DNA from: a virus | UHGV virus genome: UHGV-0062899 | Length of the DNA stretch: 10,428 nt | Direction: 5' to 3' (one strand) | Shown: piece by piece, positions 1-10,428 of the stretch | Layout of the letters: every line of letters begins with the position of its first letter | How positions within the stretch are numbered: the stretch's first letter is position 1 | Made by a program: the position numbers and the translations under genes | Notes under the pieces: model-generated | The model's database searches: none | Seen by the model: the letters and a program-made list of their open reading frames with translations, nothing else | What the model was told of the DNA's origin: nothing

Positions 1-1132
1 CCGCCCACCACTGCATCATTTCTCTGCGCTTATCGAAATACTGAGCATGGTTGTATATTCCGCGCACAGATCCTCCGTTGGCATGTGCCAGTTGCACTTC
101 AATAGCGTCAGCAGGCCATTCGTGCTCGTTCATAATCGTGCTGAATTCATGCCTGAATCCGTGACCGCTTTCCAGACCTTCATAGCCGATTTGTTTGATC
201 ACAAGCAGTACCGCGTTCTCGCAGATTGGCTTCTTCTTATCGTTGCGACCGGCAAAAACAAACTCTGATACTGGTTTGGTGATTGAGCTTAGCGTAGTGA
301 GAAGTTCAACCACCTGGTCTGACATAGGAACCACATGAATTTTGCGTCCCTTCATCACACTGGCGTCGATGGTGATAATCCTGTTTTCAAAATCGACGTT
401 CTTCCATAGCATGGAACGAAGCTCTTTTGTTCTGAGGGCTGTGTAGCGTAAAACTTTGGTCGCAATGAGCGATACGATGCTTCCTGAAAATGTTGCCAGT
501 GCTTTGTTAAATGCCGGGATCTGGTCTGCAGGAAGAAACGGGAAGTTTTTCTTGCGGTATCCCTTCATGGCGTCAGCAAGGTCAGGTGCCGGGTTATATT
601 TAGCCCTACCAGTGACAATAGCGTAACGGAAAACCTCTCCGCATCTTCTGCGGGCTTTATTTGCTCGCTCCATTGCACCGCGATCTTCAAATCTGCGGAT
701 TACTTCCAGCAGTTGCATCGGCTCAATCTCCTGAATTTCAAGGCCGCCGATGATAGGTAAAATGTCGTCATCAAACATTTTTGCAAGTTCAGTCGCATAC
801 CCTACTGACCATACTTGCTTCTTGTGCTCGTACCATTCCTTGTAAATCGCACTAAAGGAATTGTTGTTAGACGAAGCCTTTTTCGCCTTTACCGGATCGA
901 TGCCAACCGAGATGTCTTTCCTCGCAGTCCATGCCTTATCCCTTGCCTCCTGCAAAGTCATTAGCGGATATTTTCCTACGGTCAGGATTTTCTCCTTACC
1001 GTCAATCTTGTAGCGAAGCTGCCATACCTTTTTCCCGGATACAGGGACATAAAGGTACAGGCCATTACCATCGAGAAGGCGGTATGGTTTTTCTTTCGGC
1101 TTTGCTGCTTCAATCTGCTTAACAGTGAGCAT
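1..1132 (-). CDS. int: P4-type tyrosine integrase, partial (C-terminal end beyond window start)
   Basis: Minus-strand frame open from ATG at 1130-1132 to the window edge; absent from the ORF track because it runs off the end. Translation starts MLTVKQIEAAKPKEKPYRLLDGNGLYLYVPVSGKKVWQLRYKIDGKEK, the arm-binding N-domain pattern of P4/CP4-57-type integrases. Near the window start it reads HGFRHEFSTIMNEHEWPADAIEVQLAHANGGSVRGIYNHAQYFDKRREMMQWW, giving the H-x-x-R box and catalytic Tyr region. About 377 codons are present; the last ~30-40 are missing. Confidence 0.9.
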   Translation of the reverse strand, partial: MLTVKQIEAAKPKEKPYRLLDGNGLYLYVPVSGKKVWQLRYKIDGKEKILTVGKYPLMTLQEARDKAWTARKDISVGIDPVKAKKASSNNNSFSAIYKEWYEHKKQVWSVGYATELAKMFDDDILPIIGGLEIQEIEPMQLLEVIRRFEDRGAMERANKARRRCGEVFRYAIVTGRAKYNPAPDLADAMKGYRKKNFPFLPADQIPAFNKALATFSGSIVSLIATKVLRYTALRTKELRSMLWKNVDFENRIITIDASVMKGRKIHVVPMSDQVVELLTTLSSITKPVSEFVFAGRNDKKKPICENAVLLVIKQIGYEGLESGHGFRHEFSTIMNEHEWPADAIEVQLAHANGGSVRGIYNHAQYFDKRREMMQWWA

Positions 1133-1148
1133 GGGTAAAAATCCGGTG

Positions 1149-1166
1149 GGATAAATTATTTTATCC
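1149..1166. promoter_or_regulatory. Inverted repeat GGATAAA-TTAT-TTTATCC just upstream of the integrase start
   Basis: Perfect 7-bp arms with 4-bp spacer, 17 bp upstream of the int ATG, in an AT-rich leader with no strong Shine-Dalgarno. Function as operator or IHF-like site is inferred only. Confidence 0.3.
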
Positions 1167-1293
1167 ACTTTTTACCCGTCATGGAGTGCGGCTGTCAACG
1201 ATCTGAAGCGAACCATGACGAACTATGAATCTACGGAAGGCTTGATATTAAGGGGGTTTTGCGGACTGGTACGGATGGGAGCGAACTGATAAA

Positions 1294-1316
1294 TGGCGTC
1301 CCTGCAGGAATCGTCT
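1294..1316 (-). other. Candidate att core: tRNA 3-prime-end-like fragment (T-arm/acceptor/CCA-like)
   Basis: Minus strand reads GACGATTCCTGCAGGGACGCCA, resembling the end of a tRNA (GATTCC T-loop-like, 7-nt acceptor-like, ends CCA). From memory it resembles a tRNA-Arg-type 3-prime end. The adjacent ~75 nt are AT-rich and cannot fold as a tRNA body, so this is a fragment. It lies ~160 bp upstream of the P4-type int, where P4-like attP cores sit. Confidence 0.35.
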
Positions 1317-1477: not shown

Positions 1478-1711
1478 TTACAGCGTTTTTTCCTGGTGGC
1501 TGATCGGGAACTTGTCCGGTGGAAGGGCTTCAAGGGTATGTGATGGCAAATCGGGACGGTTAAGCGTGCAGTAAATCTCTGTCATAGAGATAAACGTCAG
1601 GCCACACTTAAGGTTCTGGCACTGATGATAGCTTTTTCTTACCAGGTCGCTGAGTTCAACGCTGGTTCTTGTCTTCGCCGTTGCATGGCATTGAGGGCAA
1701 CGCATAGCCAT
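1478..1711 (-). CDS. Ogr/Delta-family zinc-finger late transcription activator (77 aa)
   Basis: MAMRCPQCHATAKTRTSVELSDLVRKSYHQCQNLKCGLTF has the C-x2-C-x22-C-x4-C spacing and the RTS / YHQCQN motifs of P2 Ogr and P4 Delta. GAGGAG Shine-Dalgarno sits 8 nt upstream of the ATG. Confidence 0.85.
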   Translation of the reverse strand: MAMRCPQCHATAKTRTSVELSDLVRKSYHQCQNLKCGLTFISMTEIYCTLNRPDLPSHTLEALPPDKFPISHQEKTL

Positions 1712-1726
1712 ATGCGCTTCTCCTCT

Positions 1727-1770
1727 GGTCTGGTTAGTATCGCAATAATAATACCATACTGAACCAGACC
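1727..1770. promoter_or_regulatory. Long imperfect inverted repeat between the capsid-like gene and the Ogr/Delta-like gene
   Basis: GGTCTGGTTAGTAT (1727-1740) and ATACTGAACCAGACC (1756-1770): 14-bp arms with a one-base bulge around a 15-nt AT-rich loop. The stem base abuts the GAGGAG Shine-Dalgarno at 1720-1725 and no U-tract follows, so it is not a classical terminator. Confidence 0.35.
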
Positions 1771-1779
1771 GGAGACGGG

Positions 1780-2817
1780 TTAACGCTGATCGTTACCCCA
1801 GATAATCCCTTCAATCAGGCATCCCTTGCCGTAGTCTTCGACCACATAGGCGTTATTCCACGAATCATAGGTTGAGACGCGGTTAAATTCCGGTTCTTCC
1901 GAGATTTTGCGGCGGTGTGTTCCTGTTTGCCAGTACAAAGACAGATTATCAAGCGAAGTAACCAGCATCGCATTTTGAGGAAAGAACGGAATTGGGCAAA
2001 CGGGAAGCCCTCCGATCTGACGGTTCTCATTTTGTAATGCTAAAGCGAGCAACTCTTTATTTGGTGTCACTCCAAGATTATTAACAAAGGGATAATACTT
2101 TCCTGTAATCAATGAGAGATTACAAATAACAACAAGATCTGAATCCCCGGTGTGCCACGGATCTAATAATTCCTGATATGCCTCCATCGTCAGAGAGTCA
2201 ATAGTACCGTAATCCCCGCTGGACTCGATAATATTGGCGTTATTGCGGCGACTGACCGATACACCATTAACCACGCGGGCTGAGGCATTTCGCCGCCACT
2301 TTTCTAACCAGCCGGTATTAACATCCTGAAGCAACGGGTTAGCAGTAATATCTGATTTAGCCGCATGGTGAGTGCCATAAATGCCAGTCAGTATTACATC
2401 CAGTGCCTGACGGCGATAAATCTGGCTCTCCATATGCCCGAAGAAATTATCAAGGCCCGCCCACTGATCCAGTTTCTCATAAGAAACATAGGTATCAGTA
2501 TTCACCTGCTCACAACGGTATCGGTCAGTCTCTGCTGTACAACCTTGTACGGGCTGGCGTGCCTCTGTCGTTGAGTTGTTCGTACTGGACAGCGGTACAG
2601 ATGTAAGCCCGATCGACTCTTCTTCCTGCTCGTCCACTTCCAGAATATTTATCTGTTTAAGTAAATCTGCGCTTTCCTGCATCTTATCAACAATAGTTTG
2701 CGATGCAGATGGTGTAAGTGAAAAGGAAATCCCATCCAGCTTTGAACTGTTCAGCTTATTTTGTGATGCCTGCAATAAGCACCATGCATCATATTTTTCT
2801 CTGGTGCTGTTTTTCAT
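1780..2817 (-). CDS. P2 gpN-family major capsid protein homolog (345 aa)
   Basis: Conserved blocks match my recollection of P2 gpN along the whole length: MQESADLLKQINI, RQP, RYRCEQVNTDTY, NPLLQDVNTGWLEKWR, SGDYGTIDSLTMEA, DPWHTGDSDLVVI, GKYYPFVNN, LDNLSLYW, THRRKISEEPEFNRV, YVVEDYGKGCLIE. Length is close to gpN (about 357 aa). GGAG lies ~10 nt upstream of the ATG. Confidence 0.75.
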   Translation of the reverse strand: MKNSTREKYDAWCLLQASQNKLNSSKLDGISFSLTPSASQTIVDKMQESADLLKQINILEVDEQEEESIGLTSVPLSSTNNSTTEARQPVQGCTAETDRYRCEQVNTDTYVSYEKLDQWAGLDNFFGHMESQIYRRQALDVILTGIYGTHHAAKSDITANPLLQDVNTGWLEKWRRNASARVVNGVSVSRRNNANIIESSGDYGTIDSLTMEAYQELLDPWHTGDSDLVVICNLSLITGKYYPFVNNLGVTPNKELLALALQNENRQIGGLPVCPIPFFPQNAMLVTSLDNLSLYWQTGTHRRKISEEPEFNRVSTYDSWNNAYVVEDYGKGCLIEGIIWGNDQR

Positions 2818-2854
2818 ATAAAAAACTCCATTGATGGTATGAATTTAATCAAGA

Positions 2855-3592
2855 CTATTTTCTGAATGGCTCAATCCCCGCCGCCAGTCTCTTCTTATAA
2901 TCCATATCAGAGCGTGCTTTAGATTCCTGAATTGGCGAAGGACTGTTATTTAACGCATGGTTAATACTGCCAGACAATGCACCGGGGAAAAATGCCAGTA
3001 CAGGATCGCTGAAAAGACTACTGTCAGCATCACTCAATAATTCACGTACAACCGTTCTGGAGTCAACGCGAAGTAACTTCATAAATTCATCTGATAATAT
3101 TCTTTCTGCATCACTGGTGTTTAATCCTGCCAGAGAATAAAGCCCAATGACGACAGACAATCGCTCACCAACCAGCGCTCTGAGGTCGTCTTTAAGAGAC
3201 TGGAGAAAAGAATCCGCAATCACTGACGAAAGTTTAAAATAAGCCTCTTTCGTCTGGCGTGCCTGGCTTGCGGTTTGAATCCGTAGATCAAGCACCGTCA
3301 GGCTCTGGGATTCAATCAACTCCTGGATTTTTTGAAGCTTTACCATCACCTGCGCTGCGGACAGTGCCGCACCATCTGTTTCCGCACTTTCAACGCCTCC
3401 GTTCCTGAGCAACGCAAGCCCCCAGTCACCGGCACTATGGCCCGCGTTTGACTCCACTTCTATTTTTCGCTTTGTCTCGCTCAGGTTGGCAAGCACCTTC
3501 TCTTCGTCTGAAAGAGACTTATAGGCACGGTCAAATAGCTCTTTCTGCTGCTGGTAACTCACGAGTAATGCCTGCATGTTGTTTTGTGTCAT
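2855..3592 (-). CDS. Alpha-helical protein, possibly a Sid-like external scaffold / capsid size-determination protein (245 aa)
   Basis: Real-looking ORF forming an operon with the two genes downstream. It is rich in L/A/E/Q/S helical segments. Its size (245 aa vs 244 for P4 Sid) and position upstream of an Ogr/Delta-like gene fit Sid, and a segment SAGDWGLALLRNGGVES loosely matches what I recall of Sid. Functional call is tentative. Confidence 0.45.
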   Translation of the reverse strand: MTQNNMQALLVSYQQQKELFDRAYKSLSDEEKVLANLSETKRKIEVESNAGHSAGDWGLALLRNGGVESAETDGAALSAAQVMVKLQKIQELIESQSLTVLDLRIQTASQARQTKEAYFKLSSVIADSFLQSLKDDLRALVGERLSVVIGLYSLAGLNTSDAERILSDEFMKLLRVDSRTVVRELLSDADSSLFSDPVLAFFPGALSGSINHALNNSPSPIQESKARSDMDYKKRLAAGIEPFRK

Positions 3593-3747
3593 CGTCCTGC
3601 ACCTTGTGATTATTGCGATGGGAAAATGATTGCAGGAAAAATAAATCCAGTCGCACCGTTAAGGTTGTCAGGGGTGTACTACACCTATAAGCATCATTCG
3701 TCCCGGACGGTTTGCGCAGATAATGCAGACAGGCCAAAGGAGGAACT

Positions 3748-3957
3748 ATGCCCACATTACCCAGAAATAACAGGTCGGTGCTGAAATCACTGAGGATCCC
3801 CAATGAACTGGATCAGTACATAGTGGCGATGAGCAAGCGAAGTGGTGCGAGCTATTGTCGTTGCCTGATCGAACTGGCCGGTGCGGGTCTGCTGGCTAAA
3901 GGGATCGGGCGAATAGCCGTTCCTGAGATCGATTCCTGCCGGAAACATCGAATATAA
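3748..3957 (+). CDS. Small ribbon-helix-helix-like DNA-binding protein (69 aa), candidate regulator
   Basis: AAGGAGG Shine-Dalgarno 4-5 nt upstream of the ATG. KSLRIPNELDQYIVAMSKRSGASYCRCLIELA fits the beta-strand/helix/helix pattern of Arc/MetJ/CopG-type proteins. It is the only plus-strand gene and is divergent from the morphogenesis operon. A GATAAT -10-like hexamer lies at 3719-3724. Confidence 0.55.
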   Translation: MPTLPRNNRSVLKSLRIPNELDQYIVAMSKRSGASYCRCLIELAGAGLLAKGIGRIAVPEIDSCRKHRI

Positions 3958-4126
3958 CCCCGCCCAGCCCGTACGAGCGGGTGTATTACACATCCAGCCG
4001 CATACGCTCATATGGTACAGATCTGCCCTTGAATCCTTCACGATCTAGCCTGATGGGTGCCGTTCCCTTCAAAAAAATTGATGCATTAACACAAAAAGAT
4101 GTGATCAACTACCAGATGCAATATAA

Positions 4127-4160
4127 GCCTCTCAGAGCCACGCTGAGAGGTGTTTTCATT
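4127..4160 (+). terminator. Rho-independent terminator (plus strand)
   Basis: GCCTCTCAG-AGCCACG-CTGAGAGGT: a 9-bp stem with terminal G-U and 7-nt loop, followed by GTTTTCATT. It lies 170 bp downstream of the RHH-like gene. Confidence 0.5.
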
Positions 4161-4253
4161 ATCCACCTTCCTGCATTACCCATCTATAAAACGCATCACA
4201 TCAAGCCGGAGAATAATCAGGATATGCCATCCTGTCTCACCTCTCAGCGCGCG

Positions 4254-4281
4254 CTTGTTCCCCCGCCTCGCCCGCACGCAG
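4254..4281 (-). other. cos-like site (P2/P4/186-type cohesive-end sequence)
   Basis: Minus strand reads GGCGAGGCGGGGGAACAAGCGCGCGCTGAGAGG. The first 12 nt equal the start of the P2/P4 19-nt cohesive end as I recall it (GGCGAGGCGGGGAAAGCAC), and a CGCGCTGA block follows as I recall for P4. A chance 12-mer match in this window is improbable. Confidence 0.5.
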
Positions 4282-4589
4282 AAAGCCCGCTTTTTTGTGC
4301 AAATGTGCAGTCCGGCCAAAGCCGTGCCCCGTCTGGGCTGGAGTGGCAAAAGTACCATCAAAAAAATTGTGCATTAGCGTGCAAATTTGTGCGGTGATTT
4401 TGCAGCGATCATTTTCACCTTAAAAAGAGCCAAACTCCGGCTGCGCCCGGGCCAGTTATGCACGCTGTTTTCGTGTTGCACAATGTTGATTTATTGCCCT
4501 CGGTGCACGCTGATTTGAAAGTGAAGTGTGAAAAAAGGGTTAACAGAAAAAGAGCTGTTTTACTGAAAAACTGAGGGGAGGTACGGAAG

Positions 4590-4860
4590 TCGGTTACAAC
4601 GGTTACGGGGGTGAAATAATATGCTTAACTCAATGATTTATATTAATTAAATTTGTAACCTTTGTGAGGTTACAAAAGGTTCCATTAAAGTTACACCCAA
4701 TAAAATCAATCAGTTAAATATCTAAGTTGTAACTTTAGATAAGGTTACAGAGTAACCCGATCGTAACCCGGTTGTAACTTTTCCAAGTTGGTGAAAATTA
4801 CATATAAATCAATATAATATATTTATATCTTTACTTTGTAACTTTTGTAACCCGTTTCCG
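4590..4860. repeat. Iteron array (about 12 copies of GGTTACAA/TTGTAACC, both orientations) around an AT-rich core; putative replication origin or integrase arm sites
   Basis: Copies at 4592-4599, 4601-4607, 4653-4660, 4668-4675, 4689-4696, 4736-4743, 4743-4750, 4751-4758, 4761-4768, 4772-4779, 4836-4843 and 4846-4854. An AT-rich stretch at 4795-4835 lies among them. The array is non-coding and sits just downstream of the int2/primase operon. Confidence 0.6.
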
Positions 4861-5127
4861 ATCCCCCCCCTCAAATTCTGGAAAATCTGCTTTTTTTTAA
4901 AAAAGGCTTCTTTTCTGTTAAATGTTTTGTCATTTCGCCAAATGTCCGGCAATGGCTCCACTCCGGCAAACACTGCCACTTACGGCAGTGCTGGCCATAC
5001 ATCGAGTACAGTCATTTTTAACCGTGCTGCAGAACGGTCAGAAACGACGGTGATCCGGGCGATGAGGGCGTAATGCAGAACAGCTAAAAACGAAGGGAAT
5101 ATATCTACGCTACGAGGGAAAGGGGTA

Positions 5128-5147
5128 AACCGGCCCGTCAGCCGGTC
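5128..5147 (-). terminator. Possible terminator hairpin directly after the P2-type integrase stop
   Basis: Minus-strand RNA has a GC-rich stem ACCGGC/GCCGGU with a 5-6 nt loop, followed by UUUACCCCUUUCCC. The stem is short. Confidence 0.35.
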
Positions 5148-5149
5148 AT

Positions 5150-6130
5150 TCAGAGGCTGATTCCGCCAGAAAGGGGATTGAGTGAAACGGCGTGTTGCAG
5201 ATAGTCAGGCGCAACATGCGCATAAACCATCGTCTGCTGGATACTGGCGTGACCAAGAATTTGTTGTAAGGCGATAATATTGCCCCCGTTCATCATGAAC
5301 CAGCTTGCAAACGTATGGCGAAGCACATGCGTAGCCTGCCCGCGCGGCAGGTCCGGCTTAACCTCCCTAAGCCGCCCGCAAAAGGCTTCATAGTCAACGC
5401 TGAACAGCGGCCCGCAATCGCGGGTTTTGATCTCTTTTTCCAGTTCATCCGATATTGGGATCGTGCGCCTCTTCCCGTTTTTGGTTTTAAGAAAAGTTAC
5501 GCGTCCGTGGTTAATCTGCTCTCCCCGCAGTGTGCTGCCTTCTCCCCAGCGTGCGCCGGTGCTGAGGCACAAAAGAGCAACACGGCGATCGTCACCTGTA
5601 AGGGTATTCAATAATCGACTGATTTCCGATTTAGTAAGGTAGGTCATTGCTGCTGGTTTCTCCCTCAATGGCTCCAGCCCTTTACAGGGGTTATCAGCCT
5701 TGAATTCATCCAGTTTTATCAGGGCGCTGAACATACCCGAAAGGCGATATATATCACGGTTGACGGTGGCCGTGCTGATCCCTGAATCCAGCCGCTCGCT
5801 GCGATGCTGCGCGATGATTCGTTTAGTCAGCCGGTTAACTGCCGGGTTGCCCAGGGCTCTGATCGTTTTATCTAGGTGTCGTTTTTCGGCGTTTCCGTTC
5901 TCCAGCGTCCGGCCATACAGCAGCCACCAGATGTTTAGCAGCTCGCTGAGAGTACGCCGATCGGTGCTGGCGCCCAACCACTCTTTTTTATCGGCATTCG
6001 CCATAACATACCGTTCAAAGAGCGCTGCCTCCTGCTTTCTGTCAAAAATCCTGCGAAAGCGCTTACCGCTGCGCCCTCTGGCATAAATATCGACTTCATA
6101 ACGCCCGTCAGCCCGTTTTTTAATGGTCAT
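5150..6130 (-). CDS. int: P2-Int-like tyrosine recombinase, complete (326 aa)
   Basis: N-terminus MTIKKRADGRYEVDIYARGRSGKRFRRIFDRKQEA matches my recollection of P2/186-type integrases. Catalytic set is complete: LSTGARWGE (Arg I), KTKNGKRRTIPIS (Lys), HVLRHTFAS (His/Arg II), LGHASIQQT (His III), MVYAHV (Tyr). GAGGAA Shine-Dalgarno 8 nt upstream; start is 16 nt after the primase stop. Confidence 0.85.
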   Translation of the reverse strand: MTIKKRADGRYEVDIYARGRSGKRFRRIFDRKQEAALFERYVMANADKKEWLGASTDRRTLSELLNIWWLLYGRTLENGNAEKRHLDKTIRALGNPAVNRLTKRIIAQHRSERLDSGISTATVNRDIYRLSGMFSALIKLDEFKADNPCKGLEPLREKPAAMTYLTKSEISRLLNTLTGDDRRVALLCLSTGARWGEGSTLRGEQINHGRVTFLKTKNGKRRTIPISDELEKEIKTRDCGPLFSVDYEAFCGRLREVKPDLPRGQATHVLRHTFASWFMMNGGNIIALQQILGHASIQQTMVYAHVAPDYLQHAVSLNPLSGGISL

Positions 6131-6145
6131 ACTATTGTTCCTCTG

Positions 6146-8815
6146 CTACTGAGCGGCCGGCACTTTAAAAATCCAGCATTTCACCTGCTCAGGCTCTTTC
6201 GGGCCAGCCTCTCCACGCCCCTGATTTGCCAGTCTGGAAACCTCACTTCTTACCGTCTTCTGGCCCGTACACGGCCGCATACGCCCGTTTTTCAGGTAAT
6301 CCTGAATTTCTTTCGCCGGGGGAATATTTACACGCTGCATAGCAGCTATACGCATCAGGTGAGGGAAGTTAATGGCGATCTCGTCGCGATTCTCTTTCCC
6401 AAAATGGTTGACGCCGAAACGCTCCAGGCTATTCAGATAATCAAAGGCATCCCAGAACTCACGAACCACAGGGATATCCGCTTCCAGCGATTTAACCCGC
6501 TCCACCGCCATCACAGTAAGCTGTTCACAGGTGCGATCGAGGCGTTCTGCGGGAATATCCAGAACACAGGTCAGCGCCCTTACACATGCAATCATCTGGG
6601 CATGATTTTTGGCAATTCGGATATGACGAATTTCAGAGTGTTGTTCCAGCCTGATTTTTTCGGCCTCATACACCTCCTGAATAATCGACAATACTGCGCT
6701 TTCCCTGCATACCGCCCGGATCATAAAACCAGATACCTGATCGACCGGCAGACGCTCAAGGCGTTCAGCCGCCGCCCTGGTCAGCGATGACTGACGGCGT
6801 TTATCCGTAAACACATGGATAATACGTTCCAGTATCGCAGGTGAGGCGTTAACGGTGGCATTCTGCGCGATGACAATGCTGCCCCTGAATGGCGGCTCTC
6901 TGGTTTCATTGTTGTTGGTCTTAACACCAATCGCCCGTAATCCGCGCCCGTTGTAGAGCGGTTTTAGCTCATCGAAGTCAAAGCCGCGCAGCTTCTTCGT
7001 GTCTTGGGCGCGATCGCCTTCAAGCAGCACGACGGGAAGGTTTGAGACCTGGGCGAAGTTACGATAAATGCCCGCAACAGAACCCTTTGAAGGGTCAATT
7101 CCCTCATAGCTGTCCCTGCCACAGAGCCGCCAGAGAAAATCAATCAGCGTGGATTTACCTGTTCCCGGTTCACCGATAATCTCCAGAAAGGGAAAGCTGG
7201 CCTGCTGTTCGCGTATCTGTTCAACGAAGAATGTTCCCAGCCAGAATGCCAGCGCGACATAGCCATTTTCACCAAAAGCCGTCCAGATATCATCGGCCCA
7301 GCCTGACGAAAGCGAATTATCATCAGAATTGATATTGATTAACGGGGATCGGCTCAGTGTCTTGATATTCATCCCACCAATCTCAAAGTAATCTTCGCTG
7401 TTCAAGGAGTAGACCTTCCCGTTATGTATCGCCAGCTTATTGAATACCCATGCCCGCCAGTCCCTGTTATACCCAATAAAGTCCTGCGTCCTGACCTCTT
7501 TGATCCGGGGCAGATCCTTTTTAATCAGACCATCGAGCTGCTGGCTGGTTCCGGTATAGAGCGCACCTTTTGCCACATGGAGGAGACGCTTTTTAAACTC
7601 AGACGCAGAAGAGATCTGCCCCGCGGTAAAGGAGTCTTTCACTGCGGGTGTATTGCCTGGAAAGGCGATGCGAAAATAATACCAGGACTCGTCTGTAACT
7701 TCTGAACGCATAAAATACAGCGGTGCGGGGTGACAATTGGCTATTTCCTTAATTGCTCCAGACTCTTTCAATGCAATACTTCTGGCTTCACGTTCATCAT
7801 TAACTTTTTTATCGTTAAGGATACGCTCAACGGCCTTCATATGGCGCTCAATGTCCAGCTTAAACCAGTACACGCAGTTCCCGTATTCGAAGTGAAACTC
7901 AGGGCGTTCATTATGTTCAAACATCCGAAGCGCCTTATCTCGGGCGCTTTCCGCCAGCAACAGATCGCCGTAATAGCGGTACTCTTTCTGGTGTCGTCTG
8001 GTCAGCTTTCCGGTAAGGTGGAGATCGTTCCAGTCAGCTTTATTGCTCCCCTGTGAAGGAAGTGCGGCAACGGCTTTCCAGCCTTGTTCACGGCTCCGCG
8101 CCACATGGCGACGTATGGCTGTTTCCCCTGCTTTCCCATTGTCCAGCGCCCAGACAAGAAACGGCTTTTCTTTGCCCTGGAATTGTTCAGCAAGCGCTTT
8201 AAGCGCGGCTTCCGGGTAGTTTCCGGCAGTCATAATGGAAACGGCAGGGGTGCCGTTCTGATAAAGGCTAATGGCGTCAAAAATCCCCTCAGTTAGCCAG
8301 ATACAACTGACTTTAGCCAGATCCAGCGCTGGCGGAACCCACCAGTGACCGGCGTACTTACCGTGGAAGTTAGCCTTTCGATCAAAGCGTTCTGGCTTGT
8401 CGATAATCCGCTCCCACCAGATACCATCAGACAGGGCAAAGCGAACCGTTGCGCTTCCCATGCCGCCCTTATGGTAGCTTTCCTGCGTATAGCAGCCCTT
8501 TAAGCAGGTAGTATCCAGCCCTCTGGCTTCTCTCAGATAGGCTTCCGCAGCGGCAAAAGGCTGCTCAGGCGTGCTCTCATAGCGATCTGACCATGAGTTA
8601 AATAATTCAGGATAGAGCGATTTTACCGACAGATCAGCGCCGCAATTATTTTCCCGGCCACAGCGCAGCACCCAAGGATTTTCCATGCTGGTAAAGAGTT
8701 CTTTCTTGTTACATTCAGGGCAAATACCTGAGCGCAGATAGCCGTTCTGCTCTTTAAACTGGTAATCATGCACCAGTCGTTTTATGATTTCGGGGCGTAG
8801 ATCTTTTCTGTTCAT
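6146..8815 (-). CDS. Bifunctional primase / P-loop NTPase replication protein (zinc-ribbon + Toprim + Walker A/B), P4 alpha-like (889 aa)
   Basis: N-terminal C-x2-C-x16-C-x5-C zinc ribbon (CPECNKK...RCGRENNC); Toprim-like motifs IWLTEGIFDAISLY and LVWALDNGKAG; Walker A GEPGTGKST with downstream VVLLEGD (Walker B-like). AAGGA Shine-Dalgarno 7 nt upstream of the ATG. Confidence 0.85.
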   Translation of the reverse strand: MNRKDLRPEIIKRLVHDYQFKEQNGYLRSGICPECNKKELFTSMENPWVLRCGRENNCGADLSVKSLYPELFNSWSDRYESTPEQPFAAAEAYLREARGLDTTCLKGCYTQESYHKGGMGSATVRFALSDGIWWERIIDKPERFDRKANFHGKYAGHWWVPPALDLAKVSCIWLTEGIFDAISLYQNGTPAVSIMTAGNYPEAALKALAEQFQGKEKPFLVWALDNGKAGETAIRRHVARSREQGWKAVAALPSQGSNKADWNDLHLTGKLTRRHQKEYRYYGDLLLAESARDKALRMFEHNERPEFHFEYGNCVYWFKLDIERHMKAVERILNDKKVNDEREARSIALKESGAIKEIANCHPAPLYFMRSEVTDESWYYFRIAFPGNTPAVKDSFTAGQISSASEFKKRLLHVAKGALYTGTSQQLDGLIKKDLPRIKEVRTQDFIGYNRDWRAWVFNKLAIHNGKVYSLNSEDYFEIGGMNIKTLSRSPLININSDDNSLSSGWADDIWTAFGENGYVALAFWLGTFFVEQIREQQASFPFLEIIGEPGTGKSTLIDFLWRLCGRDSYEGIDPSKGSVAGIYRNFAQVSNLPVVLLEGDRAQDTKKLRGFDFDELKPLYNGRGLRAIGVKTNNNETREPPFRGSIVIAQNATVNASPAILERIIHVFTDKRRQSSLTRAAAERLERLPVDQVSGFMIRAVCRESAVLSIIQEVYEAEKIRLEQHSEIRHIRIAKNHAQMIACVRALTCVLDIPAERLDRTCEQLTVMAVERVKSLEADIPVVREFWDAFDYLNSLERFGVNHFGKENRDEIAINFPHLMRIAAMQRVNIPPAKEIQDYLKNGRMRPCTGQKTVRSEVSRLANQGRGEAGPKEPEQVKCWIFKVPAAQ

Positions 8816-8854: not shown

Positions 8855-9118
8855 TCACTCTTTGTCTTCTTGTACAGCATGTCCCAGATATTTGTCACAA
8901 ATCCCCAGGCGTTTAACTTCCTGTAGTACTGATGAAATATCTTCACTGATATAACTGAAAATATCCGGTATCCATAAGAGTGGCATCGCGTTAGCTTCAC
9001 ACTGGCGAATATGTAAATGCATCTGAAATGCGACATTCCTCGCGCGATTCAGTTTGTGATAATTCTCAATACTGAGGTGAGACGGATTAACACTCTGAAT
9101 ATGATTACTTGTTGTCAT
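8855..9118 (-). CDS. Hypothetical protein (87 aa)
   Basis: AGAGGA Shine-Dalgarno 5-6 nt upstream of the ATG; same strand as the replication operon; no family recognised. Confidence 0.5.
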   Translation of the reverse strand: MTTSNHIQSVNPSHLSIENYHKLNRARNVAFQMHLHIRQCEANAMPLLWIPDIFSYISEDISSVLQEVKRLGICDKYLGHAVQEDKE

Positions 9119-10266: not shown

Positions 10267-10307
10267 AGTCACCACCGGAGTTTCCACGCTCATGATTGGT
10301 GGTGACA
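10267..10307. promoter_or_regulatory. Dyad symmetry element upstream of the small-ORF cassette; candidate operator
   Basis: AGTCACCACC (10267-10276) and GGTGGTGACT (10298-10307): perfect 10-bp inverted arms with a 21-bp spacer, ~30 bp upstream of the g1 start. A near-palindrome TCATCATAATGATGA (10231-10245) covers the start codon. Confidence 0.3.
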
Positions 10308-10428
10308 CTGACAGGGGTGGAAATACCGGCGTACAAGGAGACCGGCCAGCCCGAAAGCTGCCCTGCCAGAGCCACCATTGATACTGCGCGGATCTGCTCC
10401 GCTGAATATGGTGGCACTGATTTAACGA

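What the first reader, a model, noticed from the sequence alone, without database searches (positions are those of the whole stretch)
3593..4160. Lone divergent RHH-like gene with strong ribosome-binding site and its own terminator
This is the only plus-strand gene, divergent from the morphogenesis operon across a 155-bp intergenic region, and it lies next to cos. A small RHH protein here is a candidate immunity or morphogenesis-operon regulator, or an orphan antitoxin-like repressor, since no partner ORF follows it.
Basis: partly seen in the sequence, partly recalled or inferred. Interest (0 to 1): 0.45.

Follow-up and report, generated by a model that had tools for sequence, protein, structure and literature searches.

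The report
Late-expressed small DNA-binding-like satellite gene
A real, conserved 69-residue gene of a P4-like phage satellite sits where its helper-type phage keeps its terminase and portal genes; it appears to be switched on late by the Ogr/Delta activator and probably encodes a small ribbon-helix-helix-type DNA-binding protein, not an immunity repressor or an antitoxin.

Summary
ORF 3748-3957 (+) is the only plus-strand gene. It has AGGAGG 4 nt before its ATG, a 155-bp divergent intergenic region, a stable conserved hairpin with a U-tract at 4127-4160, and a P2-type cos at 4254-4272.

It is a real gene: pN/pS is 0.03 over codons 1-53. It has syntenic homologues in three other satellites that carry their own capsid gene (Pantoea, Rahnella, one metagenomic contig).

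The locus mirrors the left end of phage P2, which reads cos, tQ terminator, Q and P leftward, one shared activator site, then O and N rightward. Here the single TGT-N12-ACA dyad of the window (3666-3683) lies 47 bp from a GATAAT -10. The same geometry occurs in all four satellites. ORF69 is therefore most likely an Ogr/Delta-dependent late gene.

The ribbon-helix-helix (RHH) fold is plausible but unproven:
- Against or uninformative: no Pfam or PDB sequence hit, and an uninformative monomer model.
- For: an invariant G-x-S loop, helices where expected, and an in-register profile match to verified RHH proteins (0 of 300 shuffles reach it).

Conserved 13-bp GTG-N5-CAC palindromes beside the dyad suggest a CopG-like feedback operator.

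The immunity and antitoxin readings are not supported. Immunity is supplied by a C4/CI RNA 6 kb away, and there is no toxin partner. Interest is moderate.

The parts
3748..3957 (+). ORF69, a 69-aa protein. Conserved core is residues 1-53: a basic N-terminal tail, a putative beta-strand K13-S-L-R-I-P18, helix 19-32, the G33-A-S35 loop, and helix 36-45. The tail 54-69 is variable.
   Evidence: Purifying selection: pN/pS 0.03 for codons 1-53. Homologues in L017, L022 and L025. AF2 helices. RHH profile tests.
3738..3743 (+). Shine-Dalgarno sequence AGGAGG, 4 nt upstream of the ATG.
   Evidence: Sequence. Invariant in 8 loci. AGGAG or AGGAGG sits at the same place in L017 and L022.
3666..3683 (.). 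TGT-N12-ACA dyad (TGTCAGGGGTGTACTACA), centre 3674.5. Candidate Ogr/Delta activator site shared by the two divergent promoters.
   Evidence: It is the only such dyad in the 10.4-kb window and is invariant. There is exactly one dyad in the equivalent intergenic region of L017, L022 and L025. The P2 record annotates one activator site (3057-3087) for both pP and pO, 55-56 bp from each transcription start. The consensus is stated in PMC3931495.
3719..3724 (+). -10 hexamer GATAAT of the ORF69 promoter, with no -35 match. The start is predicted near 3730-3731, giving a leader of about 17 nt.
   Evidence: It lies 47 bp from the dyad centre. TATGAT, TATGAT and TAGCAT lie 46-47 bp from the dyad in L017, L022 and L025. 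No complete sigma-70 promoter was found in the intergenic region. The start site is inferred, not measured.
3626..3634 (-). Candidate extended -10 (TGcAATCAT) for the divergent Sid-like/capsid/Ogr operon, 46 bp from the dyad centre. The start is predicted near 3619.
   Evidence: Weaker evidence: no equivalent hexamer passed my filter in L017 or L022, and P2's own late promoters do not pass it either.
3673..3685 (.). Perfect 13-bp palindrome GGTGTAcTACACC (GTG-N5-CAC), overlapping the ORF69-proximal half of the dyad. Candidate operator.
   Evidence: Invariant. L017, L022 and L025 carry AGTGAnnnTCACT (also GTG-N5-CAC) 21.5-22.5 bp from the dyad centre, at about -34 of the small-ORF promoter. Binding has not been tested.
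3980..3991 (.). Second palindrome copy, GGTGTAtTACAC, 23 nt after the stop codon.
   Evidence: two exact hits in the window against 0.2 expected (the pattern was derived after the fact). It is invariant inside a stretch where 30% of columns vary.
3958..4126 (+). 3' untranslated spacer. Poorly conserved (51 of 170 columns variable), with 1-nt indels, so non-coding.
   Evidence: No remnant of the Terminase_5 gene found in relatives (tblastn).
4127..4160 (+). Intrinsic terminator: a 9-bp stem, a 7-nt loop and a U-tract. It is the positional equivalent of P2 tQ.
   Evidence: z = -3.5. Conserved. P2 tQ lies at 160-181 from cosL. SEN5 has a hairpin at the same distance from cos. L022 has a strong terminator after its operon, before its cos-like site.
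4254..4272 (-). cos cohesive-end sequence GGCGAGGCGGGGGAACAAG (P2 family, Senquatrovirus-like).
   Evidence: No variable column in 4253-4275 across loci.
1478..3592 (-). The divergent late operon: a Sid-like 245-aa protein (2855-3592), a P2-family major capsid protein (1780-2817) and an Ogr/Delta zinc-finger activator (1478-1711).
   Evidence: Pfam Phage_cap_P2 at 6e-99 and Ogr_Delta at 1e-15. PHROGs. Weak similarity to P4 Sid.

Best explanation
ORF69 is a genuine late gene of a P4-like satellite that carries its own P2-family capsid gene.

The locus copies the left end of a P2-type helper, which reads cos, terminator, P/Q operon leftward, one shared Ogr-binding dyad, then O-N operon rightward. 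In the satellite the terminase and portal genes are replaced by this single 69-codon gene.

Proposed sequence of events:
1. Ogr from the helper, or the satellite's own Ogr/Delta, binds the dyad at 3666-3683.
2. It fires both divergent promoters. Leftward transcription gives Sid-like protein, capsid protein and Ogr/Delta, which is a positive feedback loop. Rightward transcription gives ORF69, starting near 3731 and stopping at the 4127-4160 terminator just before cos.
3. ORF69 folds as a minimal ribbon-helix-helix dimer of the Arc/CopG type.
4. It binds the GTG-N5-CAC palindromes at or next to the activator site and downstream of its own gene. This damps or times the late promoter pair, giving negative feedback on the self-activating Ogr/Delta loop.

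Shown: the gene is real and under selection, the family is syntenic, and the dyad/-10/terminator/cos geometry is conserved.

Inferred: activator dependence, the RHH fold, palindrome binding and the direction of regulation.
For: Coding status and family:
- pN/pS is 0.03 for codons 1-53 against 0.38-2.0 in the other frames.
- Syntenic homologues exist in Pantoea (BLASTP 7e-12), Rahnella and L025.
- M1, R6, K13, S14, R16, P18, E20, D22, Q23, I25, S29, G33 and S35 are invariant.

Promoter architecture:
- The window holds a single TGT-N12-ACA dyad, and it falls inside the 155-bp intergenic region.
- All four satellites have exactly one dyad, with a -10 hexamer 46-47 bp away toward the small ORF.
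- The P2 record annotates one activator site 55-56 bp from both the pP and pO starts, with a terminator and cos beyond Q.
- The TGT-N12-ACA consensus and shared PP'/PO' dyads are described in PMC3931495.
- An Ogr/Delta gene sits at the end of the divergent operon.

RHH fold:
- Predicted helices at 19-32 and 36-45.
- A G-x-S loop between them.
- A home-made RHH HMM scores the family above shuffles: 51, 11 and 1 of 2000 shuffles reach the observed scores.
- hhalign against ten Pfam-verified RHH proteins gives P 0.0011-0.0013, in register with Arc residues 11-39, and 0 of 300 column shuffles reach that score.

Candidate operators:
- There are two exact GTGTAnTACAC palindromes flanking the gene against 0.2 expected, both invariant.
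- AGTGAnnnTCACT lies at about -34 in the three relatives.
- Background GTG-N5-CAC density is 0.2-0.4 per kb.
Against: - No RHH-clan Pfam, NCBIfam or PHROG family and no PDB sequence is matched, even at E = 10.
- An exhaustive phmmer search of 1.84 billion representatives finds only the protein's own cluster.
- The AF2 monomer model is of low confidence (pLDDT 64.6). It shows no N-terminal strand. It retrieves only generic helical folds.
- Dimer or family-MSA prediction could not be run.
- The palindrome pattern was derived from the data. Its position relative to the dyad differs between the window family (+4.5 bp) and the relatives (+22 bp).
- The palindromes could belong to another factor.
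- No transcription data are available.
- In two relatives the gene is translationally coupled to a Terminase_5-domain protein, which points toward packaging rather than transcription control.
Confidence: 0.45

Rival explanations
1. Packaging accessory. ORF69 is a small DNA-binding or terminase-binding factor that helps the helper terminase recognise or prefer the satellite's cos. It occupies the P/Q (terminase/portal) slot. In some relatives it works with a satellite-encoded domain resembling the N-terminus of the large terminase subunit.
For: - It sits about 300 bp from cos, in the slot where P2 and SEN5 carry their terminase and portal genes.
- In Rahnella L022 and in L025 it is the first gene of an operon with overlapping stop and start codons. 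The next gene encodes a 101-108-aa Terminase_5 (PF06056, 7e-10)/HTH protein.
- Late co-expression with the capsid genes fits a packaging role.
- The hairpin at 4127-4151 repeats the cos-flank motif CTGAGAGG, and this covaries with SEN5's CTGAGGGG. That hints that this stretch is part of the packaging signal.
Against: - The window and Pantoea satellites lack the Terminase_5 partner, and no remnant of it is detectable.
- The candidate palindromes lie at the promoter, not at cos.
- No similarity to any small-terminase or Rpp-like family was found.
Confidence: 0.2
2. A small protein that is not DNA-binding and acts on a helper or host protein. Examples would be interference with helper capsid assembly, portal or the late activator. 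On this view the RHH-like pattern is coincidental.
For: - No significant RHH hit was found in any library, and the structure model is uninformative.
- Satellites often carry small orphan interference proteins (general knowledge).
- No ORF69-type palindrome occurs in SEN5 or in the P2 head region.
Against: - The invariant residues map onto the RHH strand and the G-x-S loop.
- The profile tests exceed their shuffled controls.
- Conserved palindromes lie next to the gene in all four lineages.
Confidence: 0.15
3. A Vis-like recombination directionality factor or regulator. A late-promoter-driven small DNA-binding protein would assist one of the satellite's tyrosine recombinases, for example the neighbouring 326-aa SEN5-type integrase. 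P4 Vis works this way when expressed from P_LL.
For: - The P4 record annotates ORF88 (Vis) as an 'excisionase and transcriptional regulator'. It is the first gene on the side divergent from sid.
- The 326-343-aa recombinase is syntenic with the small ORF in the window, Pantoea and Rahnella elements.
Against: - The element already has an AlpA-type HTH gene next to its P4-type integrase.
- ORF69 has no AlpA or excisionase Pfam hit.
- RHH-type excisionases are, to my knowledge, not typical.
- No palindrome copies were found in the stretch between cos and int2.
Confidence: 0.1
4. One reading: an immunity repressor of the satellite, or an orphan antitoxin-like autorepressor.
For: It is small, shows an RHH-like pattern and stands alone.
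Against: - Immunity is already accounted for by a C4/CI antisense RNA at 10295-10382 (79 bits against a gathering score of 45).
- The promoter lacks a -35 element and has the activator-dependent late geometry.
- No toxin gene is adjacent in any of four lineages.
- The C-terminal tail is nearly neutral and is absent in the relatives.
- There are no PADLOC hits.
Confidence: 0.05

Closest known systems
CopG (RepA) of plasmid pMV158 and Arc/Mnt of phage P22, which are minimal RHH repressors
   Same: - Size of the conserved core, about 45-50 aa.
- The order strand, helix, G-x-S, helix, aligned without gaps to Arc residues 11-39.
- A 13-bp symmetric element in or near the protein's own promoter. CopG binds a 13-bp pseudo-symmetric element overlapping -35 (from my own knowledge).
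   Different: - No significant sequence match to any RHH family.
- The promoter is activator-dependent and late, not a constitutive autoregulated sigma-70 promoter.
- The fold and DNA binding are not demonstrated.
The pP/pO divergent late promoter pair of phage P2, with tQ and cosL
   Same: - One activator dyad about 55 bp from both starts.
- The leftward unit ends in an intrinsic terminator 100-160 bp from cos.
- The rightward unit begins with the scaffold and capsid genes (compared).
   Different: - No detectable sequence homology between the two intergenic regions (alignment score equals the shuffle mean).
- The leftward unit encodes a 69-aa protein in place of terminase and portal.
- The rightward unit carries a Sid-like protein in place of gpO, and it ends with the activator gene itself.
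P4 Vis (ORF88), expressed from P_LL, which lies divergent to P_sid
   Same: A small putative DNA-binding protein that is the first product of a delta/Ogr-responsive promoter divergent from the sid operon.
   Different: - Vis is an AlpA-type HTH protein, and it heads a long operon (cI, epsilon, alpha).
- ORF69 is monocistronic and RHH-like.
- The element has a separate AlpA-like gene.
Small redirecting-packaging proteins of PICIs (Rpp, TerS-like)
   Same: Satellite-encoded small proteins next to the packaging site. The relatives L022 and L025 add a protein resembling the N-terminus of the large terminase subunit.
   Different: No sequence or family similarity. The role in packaging is untested.

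Membership tests
Ribbon-helix-helix (Arc/MetJ/CopG) superfamily | Significant match to an RHH-clan profile (Pfam RHH_1, Arc, RHH_5, FitA-like and others) or to a solved RHH sequence | tested here: not met
   - No RHH family is matched at E up to 10 for ORF69 or for the Pantoea and Rahnella homologues.
- PDB profile searches return only noise.
- Ten known RHH proteins run as positive controls all hit their own families.
Ribbon-helix-helix (Arc/MetJ/CopG) superfamily | Secondary-structure order: an N-terminal beta-strand, then helix A, a short loop and helix B, within about 45 residues | tested here: inconclusive
   The AF2 monomer gives helices at 19-32 and 36-45, as expected. Residues 13-18 are coil and mean pLDDT is 64.6. 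The strand forms only in the dimer, which could not be modelled.
Ribbon-helix-helix (Arc/MetJ/CopG) superfamily | G-x-S/T/N loop at the N-terminus of helix B | tested here: met
   G33-A34-S35 is present. G33 and S35 are invariant in the window family, Pantoea and Rahnella. L025 has G-E-A, with the loss of the serine.
Ribbon-helix-helix (Arc/MetJ/CopG) superfamily | Profile-profile similarity to verified RHH proteins, in register | tested here: inconclusive
   - hhalign gives P 0.0011-0.0013 and probability 18-20%, aligned to Arc residues 11-39.
- The score is 19.3 against a column-shuffle mean of 8.8 (sd 2.0, maximum 17.8). 0 of 300 shuffles reach it.
- HMM scores are 1.9, 5.5 and 9.3 bits.
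- This is suggestive but below database-level significance.
Ribbon-helix-helix (Arc/MetJ/CopG) superfamily | Intertwined homodimer that binds repeated or palindromic operator DNA through the beta-ribbon | not testable with these tools
   Candidate GTG-N5-CAC palindromes exist. Binding and dimerisation need experiments or a multimer prediction.
P2/P4 Ogr/Delta-dependent late promoter | TGT-N12-ACA dyad centred about 55 bp upstream of the transcription start | tested here: met
   - The dyad at 3666-3683 is the only one in the window.
- A -10 hexamer lies 47 bp from its centre.
- The same holds in L017, L022 and L025.
- The reference geometry comes from the P2 record and PMC3931495.
- The start site itself is inferred.
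P2/P4 Ogr/Delta-dependent late promoter | Weak or absent -35 element, with a cognate zinc-finger activator available | tested here: met
   No full sigma-70 promoter occurs in 3593-3747. An Ogr_Delta gene lies at 1478-1711.
P2/P4 Ogr/Delta-dependent late promoter | Transcription depends on Ogr/Delta | not testable with these tools
   This needs reporter assays or RNA-seq with and without the activator.
Type II toxin-antitoxin antitoxin (orphan) | Adjacent co-transcribed toxin gene, or a recognisable remnant of one | tested here: not met
   - The unit is monocistronic and ends at a terminator before cos.
- The 3' spacer is non-coding, with indels and 30% variable columns.
- The partners in the relatives are a Terminase_5/HTH protein and an unknown 61-64-aa ORF, not toxins.
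- There are no PADLOC hits.
Type II toxin-antitoxin antitoxin (orphan) | Conserved C-terminal toxin-neutralising extension | tested here: not met
   The tail 54-69 has pN/pS 0.81 and is absent from the 57-60-aa homologues.
Satellite immunity repressor | It is the element's maintenance or immunity determinant, located in the lysogeny control region | tested here: not met
   The P4-type C4/CI antisense RNA (RF01695, 79 bits) lies at 10295-10382, beside the epsilon, Icd and AlpA genes and about 6 kb away. ORF69 lies in the late/morphogenesis module.
P4 Vis/AlpA family | AlpA-type winged HTH (Pfam Phage_AlpA) | tested here: not met
   ORF69 has no such hit. A separate HTH regulator gene lies next to the P4-type integrase.

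The most novel reading that the evidence does not exclude
ORF69 founds an undescribed family of satellite 'piracy' proteins that replaced the helper-type terminase/portal operon. It would be a minimal RHH protein, made only when the helper's late activator fires. On this reading it does one of two things. Either it retargets the helper's packaging machinery to the satellite's cos, which would explain its coupling to a Terminase_5-domain protein in relatives. Or it throttles the shared Ogr-type late promoters so that satellite-encoded capsids win over helper capsids. This would be a new mechanism of helper exploitation in a previously undescribed class of P4-like satellites that carry their own capsid gene.
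Probability: 0.2. Interest if true: 0.7.

Novelty: new member of a known kind. Interest (0 to 1): 0.42.

Why it matters
If the model is right, the locus shows how a satellite rebuilt the head-gene control region of its helper. The satellite kept the helper's cos, terminator and bidirectional Ogr-dependent promoter. It swapped terminase and portal for a 69-residue regulator, and it put its own activator under that same promoter.

That yields a compact, testable feedback circuit of activator plus candidate repressor, which would control when satellite capsids are made.

It also flags a small, unannotated protein family, and a group of P4-like satellites carrying their own P2-type capsid gene. 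I found no description of these satellites in the searchable literature.

The gene by itself is a fairly ordinary small phage-type regulator candidate. The interest lies mainly in its context.

Tried and rejected
- **Remote homology.** Pfam, PHROGs, NCBIfam and PADLOC gave no hit. The word-indexed search of 5.8 billion proteins and the exhaustive phmmer search of 1.84 billion representatives found only the protein's own cluster. PDB sequence searches with two profiles gave noise. BLASTP against Arc gave nothing.
- **Collection scans for more relatives.** Genome contigs returned one near-identical locus. Viral contigs and metagenome contigs returned none. Relatives were finally reached through the neighbouring capsid gene.
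- **Sequence homology of the intergenic region to P2's P-O region.** None was found; the score equals the shuffle mean.
- **A decayed Terminase_5 gene in the 3' spacer.** Rejected.
- **The hairpin directly after the stop codon (3959-3981) as a terminator.** Rejected: z = -1.1 on both strands and no U-tract on the plus strand.
- **Alternative ORFs.** ORF 3981-4397 (+) and ORF 3787-4041 (-) are not conserved, because indels break the frame and the frame statistics are poor.
- **ORF69-type palindromes in a likely helper.** None in SEN5 or in the first 6.5 kb of P2.
- **Known RNA families in 3593-4160.** None.
Full report
**What the window is**

The window is a P4-like satellite prophage at tRNA-Arg in E. 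coli KCJ3K291. Only 1 of 5426 complete E. coli genomes carries this stretch in full.

On the minus strand it encodes:
- an Ogr/Delta zinc-finger protein (1478-1711);
- a P2-family major capsid protein (1780-2817);
- a 245-aa protein weakly similar to P4 Sid (2855-3592; 27% identity over 171 aa);
- a 326-aa tyrosine recombinase (5150-6130);
- a P4-alpha-type primase (6146-8815);
- an epsilon-like derepression protein (8855-9118).

A C4/CI antisense RNA lies at 10295-10382. The first 1313 bases belong to an Sf6/HK620-type intS gene of a neighbouring element.

**Check of the observation**

ORF 3748-3957 (+) encodes 69 aa. AGGAGG lies at 3738-3743, 4 nt before the ATG. The divergent 245-aa gene starts at 3592, so the intergenic region is exactly 155 bp.

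A 9-bp hairpin at 4127-4151 is followed by GUUUUCAUUAU. Its MFE is -16.2 kcal/mol, z = -3.5, and 0 of 200 shuffles fold as well. It lies 170 nt beyond the stop codon. The hairpin directly after the stop (3959-3981) is not significant.

On the minus strand, 4254-4272 reads GGCGAGGCGGGGGAACAAG. This shares its first 12 nt with P2/P4 cos. With its flank, it matches the physical end of P2-family Salmonella phages SEN4/SEN5 at 38 of 42 positions. All parts of the observation are confirmed.

**Is it a gene?**

I collected the locus from E. coli, Salmonella, Scandinavium and metagenomic assemblies, giving 8 distinct sequences.

- In the ORF69 frame, pN/pS is 0.15. It is 0.03 for codons 1-53 and 0.81 for codons 54-69.
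- The other five frames give 0.38-2.0.
- Several first-position changes are synonymous Arg or Leu switches.
- The ribosome-binding site is invariant.
- The 170 nt after the stop codon vary at 30% of columns and carry 1-nt indels.

The ORF is therefore translated and under purifying selection. The long overlapping ORFs 3981-4397 (+) and 3787-4041 (-) are not genes.

**Relatives**

By sequence the protein is an orphan. There is one 90%-identity cluster of 17 sequences from Enterobacterales. An exhaustive phmmer search of 1.84 billion representatives found nothing else.

Relatives came through the neighbouring capsid gene. Satellites in Pantoea stewartii (L017), Rahnella (L022) and a Logan contig (L025) have the same layout. 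Each carries a 57-60-aa ORF in the same divergent position.

- The Pantoea protein matches ORF69 at 44% identity over 34 residues (pairwise E = 7e-12).
- Invariant residues cluster in K13-S14-x-R16-x-P18-x-E20-x-D22-Q23-x-I25, S29, G33 and S35.
- In L022 and L025 the gene is the first of three with overlapping stop and start codons. The second encodes a 101-108-aa Terminase_5 (PF06056, E = 7e-10)/HTH protein.
- The window and the Pantoea element have only the small gene. No remnant of the partner is detectable.

**Architecture and regulation**

The P2 reference record annotates the following, in order from the left end:
- cosL at 1-19;
- terminator tQ at 160-181;
- Q and P, transcribed leftward from a start at 3016;
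- a single 'activator binding site; pO, pP promoters' at 3057-3087;
- the O-operon start at 3127.

So one site lies 55-56 bp from both starts. PMC3931495 states the TGT-N12-ACA consensus and describes a shared PP'/PO' dyad in another P2-like phage.

In the window, the only TGT-N12-ACA dyad (3666-3683) lies in the 155-bp intergenic region.

- Its centre is 47 bp from GATAAT (3719-3724) on the ORF69 side.
- Its centre is 46 bp from TGcAATCAT (3634-3626) on the capsid-operon side.
- No complete sigma-70 promoter is present.
- L017, L022 and L025 each have exactly one dyad in the equivalent region. TATGAT, TATGAT and TAGCAT lie 46-47 bp away toward the small ORF.
- The intergenic sequence is not alignable with P2's, so the resemblance is architectural.
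- L022 also has a strong terminator after its operon and a cos-like site beyond it.

I conclude, by inference, that ORF69 is an Ogr/Delta-dependent late gene. It occupies the slot of the helper's terminase/portal operon and ends at a tQ-equivalent terminator just before cos. The satellite's Ogr/Delta gene is the last gene of the divergent operon, so the activator is predicted to stimulate its own synthesis.

**Is it ribbon-helix-helix?**

Negative or uninformative results:
- No RHH family or solved RHH sequence is matched, even at E = 10.
- The AF2 monomer has pLDDT 64.6.

Positive results:
- Predicted helices 19-32 and 36-45 are where RHH helices A and B should be. They are preceded by K-S-L-R-I-P and separated by G-A-S, which is the G-x-S/T/N loop.
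- The segment aligns without gaps to Arc residues 11-39.
- Ten RHH proteins, written from memory, were verified against Pfam.
- An HMM built from those ten scores ORF69, the Pantoea protein and the Rahnella protein at 1.9, 5.5 and 9.3 bits. These scores are reached by 51, 11 and 1 of 2000 shuffles.
- hhalign of the family against the ten gives P 0.0011-0.0013 in the correct register. The score of 19.3 exceeds all 300 column-shuffled controls (mean 8.8, sd 2.0, maximum 17.8).

This is suggestive but not proof. I put the RHH fold at roughly two in three.

**Candidate operators**

- A perfect palindrome, GGTGTAcTACACC (3673-3685), overlaps the ORF69-proximal half of the dyad.
- A second copy, GGTGTAtTACAC (3980-3991), lies 23 nt after the stop codon.
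- There are two exact hits to GTGTANTACAC in the window against 0.2 expected. The pattern was derived after the fact.
- Both copies are invariant, the second within a stretch where 30% of columns vary.
- The three relatives carry AGTGAnnnTCACT 21.5-22.5 bp from the dyad centre, at about -34 of the small-ORF promoter.
- All four palindromes share GTG-N5-CAC, whose background density is 0.2-0.4 per kb.
- The residues predicted to face DNA, S14 and R16, are invariant.
- A 13-bp symmetric element at or near the -35 region is how CopG represses its own promoter (my own knowledge).

Hence the working model: ORF69 is made together with the capsid operon. It then binds at or next to the activator site and limits the self-activating late promoter pair.

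**Alternatives**

- The coupling to a Terminase_5-domain protein and the position next to cos keep a packaging role alive. So does a further observation: both arms of the 4127-4151 hairpin repeat the cos-flank motif CTGAGAGG, and SEN5 has CTGAGGGG at both equivalent places.
- No ORF69-type palindrome occurs in SEN5 or in the P2 head region. So there is no sign that the protein targets helper promoters through that motif.
- The immunity and antitoxin readings fail. Immunity is provided by the C4/CI RNA. The promoter is of the late type. No toxin is present in four lineages. The C-terminal tail is unconstrained.
- A Vis-like role as a recombination directionality factor is possible, but nothing beyond synteny with the 326-aa recombinase supports it.

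**Verdict**

The gene is real, probably encodes a DNA-binding protein and is probably a regulator of the morphogenesis module. It is a late gene under Ogr/Delta control, not an immunity or antitoxin gene.

It is best filed as a new, very divergent candidate member of the RHH regulators, set in a P2-style bidirectional late promoter.

Interest is moderate (0.42). Most of it comes from the context: an apparently undescribed group of P4-like satellites that carry their own capsid gene, with helper-derived cos, integrase and promoter architecture.

Noticed in passing
window 1478-3592 (-): This P4-like satellite has an alpha-type primase, an epsilon-like gene, a C4/CI RNA and a Sid-like gene. It also carries its own P2-family major capsid gene (Pfam 6e-99), about 43-55% identical to phage gpN proteins, followed by an Ogr/Delta gene. 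I found no description of P4-like satellites that encode a capsid protein in the searchable literature.
   Followed up: partly
window 5150-6130 (-): A second tyrosine recombinase (326 aa) lies between the primase and cos. It is 83% identical over its whole length to the integrase of P2-family Salmonella phage SEN5. The cos site is also SEN4/SEN5-like. The element additionally has a P4-type integrase at its tRNA-Arg end. The role of the helper-type integrase is unexplained.
   Followed up: partly
window 10295-10382 (-): C4 antisense RNA (Rfam RF01695, 79 bits against a gathering score of 45). This is the P4 CI-type immunity RNA.
   Followed up: no
window 4128-4152 and 4238-4250; L024 (SEN5) about 20-36 and 145-165: The cos-flank motif CTGAGAGG(T/C) recurs in both arms of the terminator hairpin. 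There is a 12-nt perfect inverted repeat at 4141-4152 / 4238-4249. SEN5 has CTGAGGGG at both equivalent positions, so the repeat covaries between phage and satellite. The hairpin may double as part of the terminase recognition region.
   Followed up: partly
window 4276-5149: The stretch between cos and the 326-aa recombinase is hypervariable among otherwise 90%-identical elements. Most alignment columns differ and there are large indels. Salmonella variants have a called 111-113-aa ORF there. It may correspond to the cos-proximal variable/defence hotspot described for P4-like satellites (PMC8628076).
   Followed up: no
L022 4141-4837 (-); L025 74-787 (-): In two related satellites the ORF69 homologue is followed by two further genes with overlapping stop and start codons. 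These encode a 101-108-aa Terminase_5 (gpP N-terminal-like)/HTH protein and an unknown 61-64-aa protein. A satellite-encoded fragment-like terminase domain is unusual.
   Followed up: partly
L017 5976-5993; L022 4912-4929: The 18-bp activator dyads of the Pantoea and Rahnella satellites are exact reverse complements of each other: TGTCGCCGCTCTCCGACA and TGTCGGAGAGCGGCGACA when both loci are read in the same gene orientation. The site has therefore been flipped between lineages, as expected for an element that works in both directions.
   Followed up: no
L012-L014 8285-10951; window 6146-8815: Salmonella copies of the element keep the ORF69/capsid/cos module but carry a different primase (888 aa; Zn_Ribbon_Prim with DUF927). 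This indicates modular exchange of the replication module.
   Followed up: no
contigs behind L004, L005, L010, L011: Several independent assemblies contain the element on contigs of 12,188-12,245 bp. These may be the whole excised or packaged satellite genome. The contig ends were not examined.
   Followed up: no
window 1-1313: This stretch is 96-97% identical to the integrase/attP region of Sf6, HK620 and CUS-3-type phages (intS). The satellite sits in tandem with another integrase gene at the argW locus.
   Followed up: no
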